64,000 bases of DNA from Nitrospirota bacterium. Its GTDB lineage: Bacteria > Nitrospirota > Thermodesulfovibrionia > Thermodesulfovibrionales > JdFR-86. This document shows, piece by piece, positions 30,001-36,000 of the stretch; position 1 is the stretch's first letter; every line of letters starts with the position of its first letter. The stretch is taken from the NCBI GenBank assembly GCA_963721805.1, contig CAVRJY010000002.1, positions 96,001 through 160,000 on the forward strand, in the 5' to 3' direction. Made by a program: the position numbers.

Positions 30001-33000
30001 GCCGTCGCGCGCGCTATCGGCCTCGGTCGCGGTGCTCGTGATAGCCTGCCCGTGCGCGCTGGGGCTCGCGACCCCGCTTGCGGTGCTGCGCGGTACGTGG
30101 CTCGCCTCTGCGCGCGGGATACTCGTGCGAGGCGGCGACGTGCTGGAGCGCGCGGCGCATACCGACACGCTCGTGTTCGACAAGACCGGGACGCTCACGC
30201 GCGGCAGCCCTGTGCTGACGGACGTGATCGAGACCGGCAACCATACCGCCGAAGACGTGCTGCGCCTCGCGGCATCCCTTGAGGCGCACTCCGAGCACTC
30301 CTTCGGCCGCGCGGTGCTCGCGGCCTCGCGCGCTGTCGAGCCCCTGCCCGTTGAGGCATTCAGCGTGGTCGCGGGACGCGGAGTGGTCGGCATGGCCAAC
30401 GGCTGGCGCGCGCTGCTCGGCACGAAAGGGTTGCTCGAAGACGAAGGCGTGGCCATACCCGAGGCGCTCGTCGAGCAGGCGAGGAAGCTCGCGCTTCAGG
30501 GCAAGACAGTCTCGTTTCTCGCCTCGGGCGGGCGGGCCGCCGGGCTGGTCGCGGTGGCCGACGGCATCAGGGACGAGGCGCGCGATATAGGCAAGACGGC
30601 TGATGCGATAGACCTGCGCATGGTCACCGGAGACAACGCCGCCGCTGCGGCGCATATCGCGGCCGAGGCCGGGCTGAAGGCCGTGCACGCGGGCGTCACG
30701 CCGGAGGGCAAGGCGCGGCTCATCCGGGAACTCAAGGACCATGACCGCACGGTGATGATGCTCGGAGACGGGATCAACGACGCCCCGGCGCTGAGCGAGG
30801 CGCAGGTGGGGGTATCGATGGGCCGCGCCTCGGACATCGCGCTGCTGAGCTCCGACGCGGTGCTGATGCGCAACGACCCGCGCGCAGCGCTCGAGCTAGT
30901 CGATATCGCGCGGCGCACCCTGCGGCTGATCAAGCAAAACCTCTTCTGGGCGTTCTCTTATAACCTGCTGGCGATACCCCTTGCCGCGGCCGGGCTGCTG
31001 CACCCGATAGTCTCGGCCCTGTGCATGGCCGCCAGTTCGCTCCTGGTCGTCGCCAACTCCATGAGGCTCCGCCCTCGCCGCACCGGGGCGCGATAGCTGT
31101 GTGGAGCGTGTATTTTCTCGTGCTCGTGGCGGGATTCCTCGGGCTCGCGGCATGGCTGATATTCCTGTGGGCCGCCAAGAGCGGACAGTACGACGACCCC
31201 GAGGGCCCCAAGTACCGCATGCTCGATGACGATGACGGGCCCACGGGGCCGACTGGCCCCCCTCCGGACACGGCCAGGAAACCTCCAACCGAGCCTTCGC
31301 CAAAGGGCTGAGCGCAATGCCCTCTGACCTGCTCTGGCTCTCGGCCCTGATGCTCGGCACCGGTCTCAGCGGCGGCTTCGGCCACTGCCTCGGGATGTGC
31401 GGCCCTATCGTTGTGACGTATGCCTCGGCATACCGCGTGGCTGGCATCCGGCCCCACGTACTCTACGGGCTCGGGCGCGTGACCACATACGCGCTGATGG
31501 GCGCTGCGGCAGGGCTCGCGGGCTCGCTCGTGCCCGTGGCCAGCCCGGCCGCCCAGCGCTGGGTGATGGCCGGGGCCGGGGCGCTCGTAGTGCTGATGGG
31601 GCTCGGGATGGCCGGGCGTGGGCCGGTGCTCAGGGTGCTCGAGCGCGTTGGGCTGGGCATCGGATTCATCAGGCGCGCCGGAGCTTTCTTCGGCGCTGGG
31701 CTCACGGCCGGGGCGTACTATCCGCTTGGGGTGGTGATGGGCTTCATACCCTGCGGGCTCGTATACACCGCGCTTGTGGCCTCGGCTCGCGCCTCGATGG
31801 ATGCGGCGCCGCCGGCCGCCGTGGCGCGCGGGATGGTGCTGATGGCCGCGTTCGGCGCGGGCACGATGCCGGGTATGGTGCTCGCCGGGCGGGCCTCGGC
31901 CCTGATCGGCACGCGCATGCGCGGCGCGCTCACGGCCGTAGGCGCGGCCCTGATGGTCGCGGCCGGGGTGATGTTCATCATAAGGGCTCTCCGGTAGCAG
32001 GTTTTCAGAGGATGGTGCCCGTGGCACCCCCCTTGACCGGGTCGGATCATAGCGGCTAATATATCTCTCTTACGCCGAAGTGGTGGAACTGGCAGACACG
32101 CCAGGTTCAGGGTCTGGTGAGGGTAACCTTGTGGGGGTTCGAATCCCCCCTTCGGCACCAACTTTATATCTTCCATATCGAGCCCCCATTGTGCCCCTCA
32201 TTCGGGGCGCAATGGGGGCGCACAGCTCCTGCATCACAAACCATGCCGCCTGTTGACAAACCCTCCATATGGCGATAGCATTGCTATAAACGCACAAGGA
32301 GGCAGTCAATGGGCGCAACTGATGACGCGGGTTCGGGCCTCACAAGGCGCAGGTTTCTGGGCACGACGCTAGGCATCGCGGCGGCGGGTACGGTATCAAT
32401 GCTTCTTCCCAACGCGATGGCAGCGGGCGGCGGTACGGAGCAGCCGAAACTCACGACCTACAACGGCTCGACCGACCCCTATCCGATCCCCTGGCTGGAC
32501 AAAAACGGCAGCCACAACCAGCCGGCCGGGCCGCACCTCGAGCCGTCGCACATCTTCCATTTCAAGGGGCGGGTCGCCCGCAACTCGGGCTTCGTCGGGA
32601 TGGGCACCGACAACGAGGGCAACCGCATACCGTTTGGGTCGCCGACGACCGATTACGGGTATATGCAGGGCGAGTACTGGGCCGCGCGCGCCCCGCAGCG
32701 AGGGACGTTCACCCATATATGACTCACGCTCTTTAAGGGGCAGGCTGCCCCTGCTAACCAGATCCACGATTTCCATCCCCCGATAGCGCCCTCAGGGCTC
32801 TACTGGGTAGTGCCGGTCCCGGAAGGCGGGCTCGTCATCAGCCCTGACGGCAGGACAGCTACGCTCCAGATGAAGGACGTGGCAGTCGTCGACCAGCCCA
32901 AATGGCCCGCGCTCGATGCGCTCGGCACCCCGGCTATAATGAGCTTCAAGATGGTATGGACCGCGACGGACGAAAAAGTCGTCTATGACGACCCGCAGAA

Positions 33001-36000
33001 GATGTTCCGTGTCGAGGGCTACCTCGCCAAGGCGCAGCTCGAGGCGCAGGTCGAGGTCCCATCGACCGGCTTCTCCTGGAAGTCCGATCCGCTGGCGAGC
33101 TCGAGTGCCAATTTCGCGGTCATCGGCGACGAGGTCAACGGGCGTTACTATACCCCGATGAAGTAAGGGAATGCATACCCGGCCTTCGGTATTCTGCGTT
33201 ATACTCTCCTTATGGCCGGAAACAGGAAGATATCCGAGCTCCCGCGCTCAAGCAGCGGGGACGTGGTCTTCAGCGCCCATGGGCTGACGAAGACATACCA
33301 CATGGGCGAGGTCGACGTGCTGGCCCTGCGCGGCGTGGACGCGGACGTATACGCCGGGGAGTTCATGGTCCTGCTGGGGCCCTCGGGCTCGGGCAAATCC
33401 ACGTTTCTAAACATACTGGGCGGCCTCGACACCGCGACCGGCGGCCAGGTGCTATACAAGGGCTGGGACATCACGCACGCCACCGAGCGCGAGCTGACCG
33501 AGTACCGCCGCCACCACGTGGGGTTCGTCTTTCAGTTTTACAACCTCATCCCCAGCCTGAGCGCGCTCGAAAACGTATCGGTCGTGACCGAGATCGTACA
33601 AAGCCCGATGAAGCCGCAAGACGCGCTCGCCCTGGTCGGGCTCGCGCGAGCGGCTCAACCACTTTCCGTCGCAGCTCTCGGGCGGGGAGCAGCAGCGCGT
33701 CGCCATAGCCCGCGCCATAGCCAAAAACCCCGCCGTGTTGCTCTGTGACGAGCCTACAGGCGCGCTGGACTCCGAGACCGGCGTGCTCGTGCTCGAGGCC
33801 CTGCACACGATCAACCGCGACCTCGGCACGACGACGGTCGTCATCACCCATAACGTCGATATCGGCTCGATCGCCGACAGGGTCGTCAGGCTCAGCGGCG
33901 GGCTCATCGCCGAGATCCGCAAGAACCCCGCCAAGAAGTCCCCGAGCGAGCTTCACTGGTAGCGCCGCGCGATGAAGGCATTAGACAAGAAGGTCCTGCG
34001 CACGCTATGGAGGATGAAGGGGCAGGCCCTCGCGATAGCGCTCGTGATCGTGGGCGGGGTCGCGACGTTCGTCATGTACCTCAGCGTGATGCAGTCGCTA
34101 AGGTACACGCAGCAGACCTTTTACGCCGAGCACCGGTTCCCGGACGTCTTCGCGACGCTCAAGCGCGCGCCCGAGGACATCAGGCACAGCATCGAGGTCA
34201 TCCCCGGGGTCGAGCGCGTCGAGACGCGCATCGTGGCGTGGGTGAAGGTCGAGGTCGCGGGCTACACCAAGCCGATCACCGGGAAGCTCGTATCGGTGCC
34301 GGACGTGGGCGAGCCCGCCTTCGACACGATCTATCTGCAGAGCGGCAGGTACCTCAGGCCGTGGGCGCTGGATGAGGTGATCATCAGCGACGGCTTCGCC
34401 AAGGCCCAGCACCTCGGCGCCGGAGACCATCTGGTCGTGATCCTCAATGGCAGGGAGCAGCGGTTTAAGATCGTCGGCGTAGGGGTGACGCCGGAGTACA
34501 TCTACCAGCTCGCCCCCGGCTCGCTGATACCGGACTTCGAGCGGTTCGCGATCATGTGGATCGGCAGGCGCGCGATAGAGAACGCCTACGACATGGGCGG
34601 GGCGTTCAACGACGTCACGCTCAGGATCTCAAACGACGTCAACGAGCAGTCGGTCATAAGCCGCCTCGACATGCTGCTCGCCCCGTTCGGGGGCGGCGGC
34701 GCTTACGGCAGGAGCGAGCAGCTCTCGCACCTGTACCTCTCGGAGGAGTTCAAGCAGCTCCAGAAGATGAGCTATATCGCGCCGATCATATTCCTGTCGG
34801 TCGCGGCGTTCCTGCTTAACGTGGTCATAAGCCGGGTCATAAGCACCGAGCGCGAGCAGGCCGCGACATTAAAGGCATTCGGATATTCGAACACCGACAT
34901 AACCATACACTATACGAAGCTCGTGATGGTCATCGTCGCCATCGGCACCATGGGGGGCATCGCGCTCGGGGCCTGGTTCGGCACGAAGGTCAGCGCGATA
35001 TACCAGGACTTCTACCACTTCCCGTTCATCGACTACGTGCTGAGCCCCTGGGTGGCCGGGGCCTCGTTTGTGGTGAGCTTCAGCGCGGCCGCCCTGGGCA
35101 CGGTGTTTTCGATATGGAGGACGACGCGGCTGAGCCCGGCCGAGGCGATGAGGCCGGAGCCCCCGGCCAGGTTCCGGGTGACGCTCATCGAACGCATGGG
35201 GCTCGGCCCCTACCTCTCGGAGCCGACGCGCATCATCGCCCGCAACATAGGCAGGCGGCCCGTGCACTCGGCCCTGACCGTGCTGGGCATCGCGCTCGCC
35301 GGAGGCATCCTCATGATGGGCCAGATGTTCGGGGACTCGATGAACTTCATCATAGCCACGCAGTTCGGGCTCGCCGAGCGCGAGGACATGGTGGTGACCT
35401 TCATAGAGCCCTCGGCCGGCCGCACGCTCTATGAGCTTAAGAGCGTGGGCGGGGTGCGCGACGCCGAGCCGTTCCGCTCGGTGCCGGTGAGGCTCCGGCA
35501 CGGCTACCGCAACTACCTCACCTCGATCAGCGGGCTTCAGAGCAGCCCGGTGCTCTACAGGCTCATCGACGCGAACCTGCGCGTCATGCGCGTGCCCGAA
35601 GACGGCGTGCTGCTTACGGACCACCTCGCGGACGTCCTCGGCGTGAAGGCCGGCGACGAGCTTACGGTAGAGGCGCTCGAGGGCGCAAGGCCGGTGCGGA
35701 GCGTCACCGTGGCCGGCACTGTCCACCAGTTTATCGGGATGAACGCGTTTATGAACATCCATGCCCTGAACAGGCTGATGCGCGAGGGCGACGTCGTCTC
35801 GGGCGCCTACCTCTCGATAGACGCGCCGAGGCAGAAGGACATATTTCAGGCGCTCTTTGAGATGCCGCACGTGCTCGGCATCGACGTGACCGCGCTGGCG
35901 GTCGAGAACTTCAAAAAGACGATGAGCCGCCAGATGCTCGTGTTCGCGTTTTACCTGACGCTGTTTGCGACCTCGATAGCCTTCGGCGTGCTATACAACA

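What a model noticed while it worked through the whole genome (the two positions that open the first line are those of the whole stretch)
32309..33166. Unnamed, widespread Tat-signal beta-barrel selenoprotein (Sec138)
The two same-frame ORFs at C2:128309-128722 and 128810-129166 are one 285-codon gene whose TGA at 128720 encodes selenocysteine. The protein has a twin-arginine signal, six invariant histidines and a predicted beta-barrel fold. It belongs to a family found in several phyla that has no Pfam or NCBIfam model.
Evidence so far: - The TGA is aligned in 8 of 8 rows from two families of the order and in 76 of the best 80 of 230 relatives from species-representative genomes. - A 7-bp hairpin at +17..+33 has GC/AU double changes at three pairs in 71 distinct sequences. 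- Cys homologue P0011. - tRNA-Sec, SelD and SelB are present. - 0 Pfam and 0 NCBIfam families. - AlphaFold2 pLDDT 81.6. No Foldseek PDB hit at E<=0.001. VIA Z<=9.1, generic barrels.
(Added by a program. Inside this text positions count along the whole contig: contig position 96,001 is position 1 of the stretch shown here. "Call 12" and the like, gene names such as g00115 and contig names such as C1 are that model's own, and its searches are not shown. The text may have been shortened before it was handed on; [...] marks where a part breaks off. The agent that wrote the report below was given it as the finding of a first reader that could run no searches.)

Follow-up and report, generated by a model that had tools for sequence, protein, structure and literature searches.

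The report
Uncatalogued Tat-exported bacterial selenoprotein family
One 285-codon gene whose internal TGA is almost certainly read as selenocysteine encodes an exported beta-barrel protein of a family, scattered over several soil and sediment phyla, that no domain library or selenoprotein catalogue lists; its function is still unknown.

Summary
Window 32309-33166 (+) is one reading frame of 285 codons with a single in-frame TGA at 32720-32722 (codon 138).

Evidence that the TGA encodes selenocysteine:
- It sits at the same aligned codon in 80 of 80 related genome loci.
- It also sits there in 80 of 80 loci of a second, deeply diverged subfamily (about 30% identity).
- A 7-bp hairpin at +17..+33 meets all four published bacterial SECIS criteria. 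It shows compensatory GC/AU swaps at three pairs, at least 9, 4 and 3 separate changes on a tree.
- Codons after the TGA vary like coding DNA.
- tRNA-Sec, SelA, SelB, SelD and TatC are present, and TGA ends 8 of 28 long frames in the window.

The protein has a twin-arginine signal and a confidently predicted beta-barrel (pLDDT 84-88). It has no Pfam or NCBIfam domain, and it fits none of the 119 families in a 2026 catalogue.

- The "six invariant histidines" hold only in the window's subfamily.
- Sec138, His69, His153, Asp115, Asp154, Asp195 and Gln151 are conserved across both subfamilies.
- The family spans several phyla but is rare, about 1.5-2.5% of sampled species.

Function is inferred only: most likely a periplasmic redox enzyme with Sec at a His/Asp, possibly metal, site.

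The parts
32253..32281 (+). sigma-70-like promoter candidate, TTGACA-17 nt-TAGCAT, between tRNA-Leu and the gene
   Evidence: 10 of 12 consensus matches; 1 site found against 0.4 +/- 0.7 in shuffles. A consensus match only, not shown to function.
32297..32302 (+). ribosome-binding site AGGAGG, 6 nt before the ATG
   Evidence: Read directly.
32309..33166 (+). selenoprotein gene: 285 codons plus TAA stop, with one in-frame TGA
32309..32422 (+). twin-arginine signal peptide, residues 1-38: T-R-R-R-F-L-G, a hydrophobic stretch, then A-M-A with cleavage probably after A38
   Evidence: Sequence. TIGR01409 scores 14.7 bits (cut-off 16.7). The RR pair is nearly invariant in both subfamilies. TatC is in the genome. 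The cleavage site is judged by eye and was not tested.
32720..32722 (+). TGA codon 138, read as selenocysteine
   Evidence: TGA at the aligned codon in 80 of 80 and 80 of 80 related loci. Cys in P0012 and P0234.
32736..32752 (+). bacterial SECIS-type hairpin: 7-bp stem, apical loop GGC at 32743-32745, 20 nt after the TGA
   Evidence: -12.2 kcal/mol; covariation; same register in subfamily B; repeated compensatory changes; published criteria.
32723..33163 (+). codons 139-285, translated only if the TGA is decoded. Holds the invariant Q151, H153, D154, D195, E275 and N277.
   Evidence: share of non-majority bases at codon positions 1/2/3 is 0.113/0.081/0.430 downstream against 0.076/0.054/0.418 upstream. 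One search gives the conservation.

Best explanation
Window 32309-33166 is a single gene for a 285-residue selenoprotein.

Supported by comparative evidence: when the ribosome reaches UGA-138, a hairpin 20 nt downstream (7 bp, loop GGC) would recruit SelB carrying Sec-tRNA(Sec), so selenocysteine is inserted and translation runs on to the TAA at 33164-33166.

Inferred from the conserved twin-arginine signal and the presence of TatC: the protein folds in the cytoplasm and is exported by the Tat pathway, giving a soluble periplasmic protein of about 247 residues. This consists of a roughly 35-residue N-terminal extension and a long-stranded antiparallel beta-barrel.

Inferred from conservation only: Sec138 lies in the strand pair 128-142. 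That pair is flanked by the strands carrying the family-wide invariant Asp115 and Gln151-x-His153-Asp154, and Sec138 is the catalytic residue.

My committed reading, at about 45%: Sec138, His69, residue 84 (His in the window's subfamily, Asp in the other) and His153 form a mononuclear metal or redox site of a stand-alone periplasmic oxidoreductase. The window's subfamily adds His81, His136 and His156.

The family is not in any domain library or selenoprotein catalogue that I could search.
For: One frame with one TGA.

TGA conserved: 80 of 80 genome loci, whose record titles name Acidobacteriota, Nitrospirota, Syntrophorhabdales/Syntrophaceae, Verrucomicrobia, Myxococcaceae, Dormiibacterota and Betaproteobacteria. 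Also 80 of 80 metagenome loci of subfamily B and 6 of 6 hits in a second phylum sample.

The hairpin meets the four bSECIS constraints quoted in PMC13188914 (Fig. 2 legend): loop of 3 nt, stem of 7 bp, G in the first two loop positions, 20 nt spacing, and -12.2 kcal/mol.

Covariation: 94.2% of cells paired, 0 of 500 shuffles reach it, slid controls 34-53%, three pairs with 28, 22 and 25 double changes among 75 distinct sequences. On a tree built without the hairpin codons, the Watson-Crick pair type changes at least 9, 4 and 3 times. In subfamily B, 217 of 252 cells (86.1%) pair in the same register against 33-53% slid, and one pair shows UA 9, GC 6, CG 5, GU 5, AU 2.

The downstream codons behave as coding sequence.

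Machinery: tRNA-Sec with anticodon TCA, SelA, SelB, and SelD, which itself has one TGA. SelB scores over its cut-off in 5 of 5 carriers from other lineages and in 5 of 5 carriers from the window's own phylum.

TGA ends 8 of 28 long frames in the window.

Cys forms: P0012 (10 member sequences from ENA, JGI and Logan) and P0234.

Tat: the RR motif is conserved in both subfamilies and TatC is present.

Fold: pLDDT 84.2 with pTM 0.77, and 88.3 with 0.85, for the two subfamilies.

Active-site candidates: H69 80/80 and 63/63; H153 80/80 and 62/63; D115, D154, D195 and Q151 invariant in both; position 84 is H in 79/80 and D in 63/63.

No catalogue match.
Against: There is no protein-level or RNA-level evidence, and no RNA run is listed.

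Taken alone, the hairpin is not unusually stable for this G+C-rich sequence: z is -1.44 and -0.47, and 14 and 58 of 200 shuffles fold as well. The case for it rests on covariation. No Rfam family matches.

Cys homologues are few, and I did not see their DNA. Other full-length homologues have Ser (P0122), Glu (P0123) or Gly (P0010/G200, in a genome that keeps SelB and tRNA-Sec). So the residue is not indispensable everywhere.

The functional part is untested. Four of the six histidines are missing in subfamily B.

Cys92, present in 75 of 80 subfamily-A proteins, is Asn in the window, which leaves the resolving step of any thiol-type cycle open.

No conserved neighbour gives a functional hint.
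Confidence: 0.85

Rival explanations
1. It is the same selenoprotein, but metal-free. Sec138 is a redox-active selenol, or a nucleophile activated by His153/Asp154. It would act as a periplasmic peroxidase or reductase recycled by an outside thiol donor. In most of subfamily A, Cys92 would be the resolving residue.
For: Most catalogued bacterial selenoproteins are thiol-type oxidoreductases (review text). Cys92 is present in 75 of 80 subfamily-A proteins. AhpC/TSA-Redoxin genes are the nearest neighbour in 4 of the 150 flanking ORFs scanned. A DsbD_2 gene lies upstream in the window.
Against: There is no UxxC or CxxU motif. Cys92 is Asn in the window and hydrophobic in all 63 subfamily-B proteins. 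The fold is not thioredoxin-like. The redoxin neighbours are few and may reflect shared synteny among close kin. The DsbD_2 gene belongs to the cco-maturation cluster and is separated from this gene by a tRNA gene.
Confidence: 0.3
2. It is the same selenoprotein, but not an enzyme. It would be a periplasmic binder or chaperone for a soft metal or metalloid such as Cu(I), Hg, As or Se, using Sec plus His.
For: Several catalogued selenoproteins are metal-binding or mercury-related (Table 1). The window's subfamily is His-rich. A heavy-metal P-type ATPase lies upstream in the window.
Against: The P-type ATPase is part of a cbb3-oxidase maturation cluster (with FixS and DsbD_2) and is not conserved next to relatives; the two ATPase neighbours found are of the Cation_ATPase_N type. 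There is no conserved link to efflux or resistance genes.
Confidence: 0.12
3. The TGA is a true stop. There would be two products: a 137-residue exported protein and a separately started C-terminal protein. Alternatively the gene is dead.
For: Table 11 gives two ORFs. Most database entries are half-length.
Against: The 29 codons between the TGA and the next possible start (GTG at 32810) hold the most conserved motif of the family (Q151, H153, D154) and vary as coding sequence. The TGA is kept in 160 of 160 loci across two subfamilies. The barrel model spans both halves. A dead gene would not keep one stop and no other: 80 of 81 sequences have no second stop in 210 codons, and the one extra stop is at the very end, codon 209 of the 210 read.
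Confidence: 0.03
4. The TGA is decoded as a standard amino acid (Trp, Gly or Cys), by an altered code or by read-through, and not as Sec.
For: Many database proteins print W at this position.
Against: The DNA under those W forms is TGA (80 of 80), so the W most likely comes from gene callers using a TGA=Trp table; this is my inference. TGA ends 8 of 28 long frames in the window. Only one TGA occurs per gene, always at the same codon and followed by a covarying hairpin. Full Sec machinery is present.
Confidence: 0.03

Closest known systems
Formate dehydrogenase alpha subunit (FdhA/FdnG type), a Tat-exported selenoprotein. That FdnG is Tat-exported is recalled; that Sec is a Mo/W ligand comes from the review text.
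   Same: A twin-arginine signal combined with one in-frame UGA that is decoded through a hairpin just downstream. It is the precedent for a selenoprotein exported in folded form, and for Sec as a metal ligand.
   Different: No molybdopterin or Fe-S domains: no Pfam or NCBIfam hit at all. It has 285 residues rather than about 1000, a beta-barrel fold, and motif T-H-I-U rather than U-H-x-P (Table 1).
GSU2204 family CXXCH-containing selenoprotein (MtrB/PioB-type outer-membrane beta-barrel, NF041027; Table 1 of PMC13188914)
   Same: A predicted beta-barrel selenoprotein of the cell envelope.
   Different: No NF041027 match in the NCBIfam scans. No CXXCH motif in the sequence. The Tat signal and the polar strands argue for a soluble barrel.
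AttH / 25-phosphosteroid lyase / kievitone hydratase group of soluble barrel enzymes (2ich, 9fzn, 7a0q)
   Same: These are the best soluble-protein fold matches in both models. 2ich: Z 7.4 (rmsd 4.0, 137 aligned) and Z 7.2 (4.0, 138); Foldseek E 2.1e-3, prob 0.90 with the subfamily-B model. 9fzn: Z 7.0 and 6.7. 7a0q: Z 4.9 and 5.5.
   Different: The scores fall in the range the tool calls a common arrangement. Sequence identity is 6-12%, there is no sequence-family match, and none of these is a selenoprotein or is known to me as a Tat substrate. This is fold likeness only.
Small 8-stranded outer-membrane barrels (NspA 1p4t, PagL 2erv, OmpW 2f1t, Dot/Icm porin III 9nh2)
   Same: Highest structural scores: Z 9.5 (rmsd 4.3, 139 aligned), 9.3 and 9.2 for the window model, and 9.1 (4.2, 143) for subfamily B.
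   Different: Membrane barrels are exported unfolded by the Sec pathway (established knowledge), whereas this protein has a conserved Tat signal. Identity is 4-9%. This is a generic barrel likeness.

Membership tests
Bacterial selenoprotein gene (UGA decoded through a bSECIS) | The in-frame UGA is conserved at the same codon in homologues | tested here: met
   80 of 80 loci, 80 of 80 subfamily-B loci, 7 of 8 full-length relatives in the phylum sample, and 6 of 6 in a second phylum sample.
Bacterial selenoprotein gene (UGA decoded through a bSECIS) | The hairpin fits the consensus bSECIS model: loop 3-9 nt, stem 4-16 bp, G in the first two loop positions, 16-37 nt from UGA to loop, MFE <= -7.5 kcal/mol (PMC13188914 Fig. 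2 legend) | tested here: met
   Loop GGC (3 nt), stem 7 bp, 20 nt spacing, -12.2 kcal/mol. Supported by covariation.
Bacterial selenoprotein gene (UGA decoded through a bSECIS) | Sec machinery is present in the genome (selC, selA, selB, selD) | tested here: met
   all score over the curated cut-offs.
Bacterial selenoprotein gene (UGA decoded through a bSECIS) | Homologues exist with Cys at the Sec position | tested here: met
   P0012 (cluster of 10 sequences) and P0234 have C at the aligned column. Their DNA was not seen. Cys forms are rare.
Bacterial selenoprotein gene (UGA decoded through a bSECIS) | Selenium is actually incorporated into the protein | not testable with these tools
   Needs 75Se labelling or mass spectrometry.
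Tat (twin-arginine) substrate | N-terminal S/T-R-R-x-F-L-K-type motif, a hydrophobic region and an A-x-A site | tested here: met
   T-R-R-R-F-L-G at residues 12-18 and A-M-A at 36-38. RR is nearly invariant in both subfamilies.
Tat (twin-arginine) substrate | The signal HMM scores over its curated cut-off | tested here: inconclusive
   TIGR01409 scores 14.7 bits against a cut-off of 16.7. PF10518 is matched by 7 of 34 and TIGR01409 by 6 of 34 family members at E<=1.
Tat (twin-arginine) substrate | A Tat translocase is encoded in the genome | tested here: met
   TatC (PF00902) scores 239 bits at G000:C2:77212-77889.
Any of the 119 catalogued prokaryotic selenoprotein families (Table 1, PMC13188914) | A match to the family's Pfam, TIGR or NF model | tested here: not met
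   The whole of Table 1 was read. No Pfam or NCBIfam (release 20.0) domain hit for the window protein or for any of the 34 aligned members. The entries defined only by cd or PTHR ids could not be scanned.
AttH/CrtC-like soluble barrel enzymes | A shared fold standing clearly above background | tested here: inconclusive
   Z 7.2-7.4 for 2ich. Foldseek E 2.1e-3 with one model only.

The most novel reading that the evidence does not exclude
The family would be a third kind of metal-selenocysteine enzyme, after Mo/W formate dehydrogenases and [NiFeSe] hydrogenases. It would be a small Tat-exported beta-barrel oxidoreductase whose mononuclear metal is held by Sec138, His69, His/Asp84 and His153. 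Sec is nearly obligatory (Cys forms are rare), and this would have hidden the family from searches that start from Cys homologues.
Probability: 0.3. Interest if true: 0.85.

Novelty: new member of a known kind. Interest (0 to 1): 0.62.

Why it matters
The way the UGA is decoded is ordinary. The protein family is not in Pfam, in NCBIfam 20.0, or in the 119-family catalogue of May 2026. If confirmed, the finding would:
- Add a selenoprotein family that spans at least seven named lineages of soil, peat and sediment bacteria.
- Show that public protein sets hold it almost only as half-length fragments, or with a false Trp at the Sec position.
- Point to a blind spot of prediction methods that need Cys homologues (deep-Sep discussion passage).
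- Offer a small, well-predicted exported protein for asking why Sec is kept so strictly outside the cytoplasm.

Correct annotation would also join two "hypothetical" ORFs in hundreds of genomes.

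Tried and rejected
- **Rfam:** a permissive scan of 32650-32850 gave no SECIS or other credible family; the best E was 1.3, for a snoRNA model.
- **PDB by sequence profile:** only a Tat-signal peptide at E 0.33.
- **Foldseek against PDB:** 0 hits at E<=0.001 with both models.
- **ESM Atlas:** the read-through protein was not accepted. The natural Cys homologue P0012 gave only leads below 0.9: a hypothetical cluster at 0.82, CIA30 at 0.79, DUF3047 and DUF6623 at 0.76. I rejected these as chance-level.
- **Longer, fused forms:** none among 5476 candidates. The tool itself calls this weak evidence.
- **Conserved neighbours, subfamily A:** the largest non-self cluster is in 8 of 81 loci. 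Its nearest-neighbour Pfam families are diverse (150 of the 159 nearest flanking ORFs scanned): DUF302/DUF202 5, AhpC-TSA 4, DUF4382 4, DUF1348 3, Iso_dh 3, adh_short 3, E1-E2 ATPase 2.
- **Conserved neighbours, subfamily B:** the largest cluster is in 13 of 80 loci, with flanks of 1.5 kb only.
- **Paralogue in the own genome:** none; the subfamily-B profile hits only this gene, at E 2e-40.
- **Expression:** no RNA holder is listed among 4 runs.
- **Sec loss as the cause of the Gly variant (G200):** rejected, because that genome keeps SelB and tRNA-Sec.
- **Strand-register estimate of what faces Sec138:** the two models' DSSP strings differ by one residue, so I make no claim about side-chain contacts.
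- **Literature:** searches found no description of the family. PMC13188914 has 0 occurrences of 'periplasm', 'signal peptide', 'twin-arginine' or 'Acidobacteri'.

Full report
**What is in the sequence.** Under table 11, window 32309-32722 and 32810-33166 are two ORFs in the same frame. Read through, 32309-33166 gives 285 residues with one stop only, TGA at 32720-32722 (codon 138), and ends at TAA. AGGAGG lies 6 nt before the ATG. A TTGACA-17-TAGCAT promoter-like site lies at 32253-32281. tRNA-Leu(CAG) at 32074-32160 precedes the gene.

**Is the TGA decoded?**

- *Conservation of the codon.* A scan of one genome per species found 230 relatives, and the best 80 loci were kept. tblastn with X at the stop shows TGA at the aligned codon in 80 of 80. 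In an even sample of 401 genomes of the window's phylum, 10 match: 8 (own included) with the TGA, one with Gly, and one 38-residue fragment.
- *A second subfamily.* Full-length database proteins at about 30-35% identity (P0119, P0187, P0250) print W at this column, and P0234 prints C. A metagenome scan with their alignment found 482 relatives. All 80 kept loci have TGA at that codon. One of the two search patterns could only match TGG or TGY at this codon, so it could not have favoured TGA. The printed W is thus most likely a gene caller's TGA=Trp reading; this is my inference.
- *Downstream coding.* Over 81 sequences, the share of non-majority bases at codon positions 1/2/3 is 0.113/0.081/0.430 after the TGA and 0.076/0.054/0.418 before it. 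80 of 81 sequences have no other stop in 210 codons. The one exception is at the very end, codon 209 of the 210 read.
- *TGA is normally a stop here.* It ends 8 of 28 long non-overlapping frames in the window.
- *Machinery.* The genome has tRNA-Sec with anticodon TCA, SelA (575.8 bits), SelB (380.3 bits) and SelD, which itself has one TGA. SelB is over its cut-off in 5 of 5 carriers from five other lineages. SelB and tRNA-Sec are also present in 5 of 5 carriers from the window's own phylum.

**The hairpin.** Positions 32736-32752 form a 7-bp stem with loop GGC and fold at -12.2 kcal/mol. The loop starts 20 nt after the TGA. This meets all four constraints of the consensus bacterial SECIS model quoted in the Fig. 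2 legend of PMC13188914 (section 5 read).

- *Single-sequence stability.* On its own the hairpin is not exceptional for this composition: 14 and 58 of 200 shuffles fold as well. No Rfam model matches.
- *Covariation in subfamily A.* Over 75 distinct sequences, 94.2% of cells pair. Shuffles give 84.1 +/- 0.8 and none of 500 reaches the observed value. Slid controls give 34-53%. Three pairs switch between GC and AU (41/28), AU and GC (40/22), and AU and CG (46/25). Several of the 3' partners are synonymous third positions.
- *Independent events.* On a tree built from the protein without the hairpin's codons, the Watson-Crick pair type changes at least 9, 4 and 3 times at these pairs. The swaps are therefore repeated events and not one inherited change.
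- *Subfamily B.* The same register holds: 217 of 252 cells pair (86.1%) against 33-53% slid. Loops are GGU 20, GGC 5, GUU 5, GGG 4 of 36. One pair shows five pair types. Many members add a lower stem directly after the UGA.

**The protein.**

- *Export signal.* Residues 12-18 are T-R-R-R-F-L-G, followed by a hydrophobic stretch and A-M-A. The Tat HMM is just under its cut-off for the window protein (14.7 against 16.7 bits). The RR pair is nearly invariant in both subfamilies, and TatC is encoded.
- *No known domain.* Nothing is found in Pfam or NCBIfam 20.0 for the window protein or for any of 34 aligned members. A PDB sequence-profile search finds nothing either.
- *Fold.* AlphaFold2 gives pLDDT 84.2 and pTM 0.77 for the window protein, and 88.3 and 0.85 for a subfamily-B member. 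Both show long antiparallel strands from about residue 85 to the end. Foldseek finds no PDB hit at E<=0.001 for either model; the best is 2ich AttH at 2.1e-3. VIA-align gives Z 9.5-9.1 to small membrane barrels and Z 8.4-6.7 to soluble barrels (CghA, AttH, 25-phosphosteroid lyase). The tool describes this range as a common arrangement.

**Conservation.** In 80 distinct subfamily-A proteins, His69, 81, 84, 136, 153 and 156 are each kept in 79-80. In 63 distinct subfamily-B proteins only His69 (63) and His153 (62) remain. Position 84 becomes Asp (63), 156 becomes Asn (59), 136 becomes Phe (56) and 81 becomes Thr (50). Sec138, Asp115, Gln151, Asp154 and Asp195 are invariant in both. Cys92 is present in 75 of 80 subfamily-A proteins, but it is Asn in the window and hydrophobic in subfamily B.

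**How it most likely works.**

- *Shown by comparison:* SECIS-directed insertion of Sec at codon 138 of a single gene.
- *Inferred:* folding in the cytoplasm and Tat export to the periplasm.
- *Inferred from conservation alone:* Sec138 is the catalytic residue. It sits in the strand pair 128-142, between the strands that carry Asp115 and Gln151/His153/Asp154. Positions 69, 84, 138 and 153 are potential metal ligands in both subfamilies (H/H, H/D, U/U, H/H).

The conserved Tat signal, the absence of a UxxC or CxxU motif, and the absence of a universal partner Cys make me favour a mononuclear metal or redox site (about 45%). A metal-free selenol enzyme comes next (about 30%), then a binding protein (about 12%). 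I could not measure distances because model coordinates are not given. Register estimates from the two DSSP strings disagree by one residue, so I claim no contacts.

**Context and spread.**

- *Window neighbours.* Upstream are a heavy-metal P-type ATPase, FixS and DsbD_2, which together form a cbb3-oxidase maturation set. Downstream are an ABC ATPase and a MacB/FtsX permease.
- *No conserved neighbour.* The largest non-self neighbour cluster is in 8 of 81 loci for subfamily A and in 13 of 80 for subfamily B.
- *No fusions or paralogues.* No longer fused forms and no paralogue in the own genome.
- *Taxa.* Record titles name Acidobacteriota (most), Nitrospirota, Syntrophorhabdales/Syntrophaceae, Verrucomicrobia, Myxococcaceae, Dormiibacterota and Betaproteobacteria.
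- *Prevalence is low.* 10 of 401 sampled genomes in the window's phylum match. In the phylum of the genome that holds L024, titled Candidatus Acidoferrales, 6 of 401 match.

**Novelty.** I read the whole of Table 1 of PMC13188914 (May 2026; 119 families or subfamilies, each with a domain id). None fits, and every PF, TIGR or NF entry is excluded by the scans above. Entries with only cd or PTHR ids could not be scanned. The review's text has no occurrence of periplasm, signal peptide, twin-arginine or Acidobacteri. Of the deep-Sep paper (PMC12013277) I saw passages only. Its nine new families are named there, and its discussion says that selenoproteins lacking Cys homologues may be filtered out, which could explain why this family was overlooked. 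Four full-text searches found no description. Supplements were not opened. Database names are 'hypothetical protein' or none.

**Against my reading.**

- There is no protein or RNA evidence.
- Cys forms are few, and I did not check them at DNA level.
- Ser, Glu and Gly occur at position 138 in single homologues, the Gly one in a genome that still has the Sec machinery.
- The function is conjecture.

**Verdict.** This is a genuine, uncatalogued selenoprotein family decoded in the ordinary way. It is of clear interest to the selenium field and for genome annotation. It has a real but unproven chance of holding a new Sec-metal site.

Noticed in passing
window 33212-33962: The ABC-transporter ATPase gene just downstream is split over two frames: 33212..33748 matches only positions 1-101 of the 137-position ABC_tran model, and 33735..33962 continues in another frame. 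This is either a frameshift or an assembly error.
   Followed up: partly
window 32182-32219: Directly after tRNA-Leu(CAG) there is a 16-bp G+C-rich inverted repeat (5' arm 32182-32197, loop 32198-32203, 3' arm 32204-32219) with no T run. It may be a terminator or processing hairpin that separates the tRNA from the selenoprotein gene.
   Followed up: no
window 28646-31997: A cbb3-oxidase maturation-type cluster lies upstream: a P-type ATPase with HMA and ATPase-cat_bd domains, FixS/CcoS, and a DsbD_2 membrane protein. It is not conserved next to relatives of the selenoprotein.
   Followed up: partly
G000:C1:1484881-1485801 (L091): The genome's SelD gene itself contains one in-frame TGA, so it is a second selenoprotein gene in this genome.
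   Followed up: no
proteins P0002-P0008, P0119, P0124, P0187, P0250: Public protein sets hold this family mostly as half-length ORFs that end or start at the TGA. Some full-length entries print Trp at the Sec codon; the DNA of their kin has TGA.
   Followed up: yes
L100 (G200:C2:562876-563700) = P0010: One relative has Gly in place of Sec, although its genome keeps SelB and tRNA-Sec. Single homologues also have Ser (P0122) and Glu (P0123).
   Followed up: partly
window 32582-32584 (codon 92): The window protein is the only one of 80 distinct subfamily-A proteins with Asn at position 92; 75 of them have Cys there.
   Followed up: partly
L105, L107, L117, L124 and others (subfamily B), +5..+47 from the TGA: Many subfamily-B genes have an added lower stem, with CUGGAUCU directly after the UGA pairing with AGAUCCAG. 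This gives a two-tier SECIS that the window's subfamily lacks.
   Followed up: partly
G000:C2:77212-77889 and C2:88985-90340: tatC and selA lie on the same contig, about 51 kb and 38 kb upstream of the gene. This is probably coincidental.
   Followed up: no
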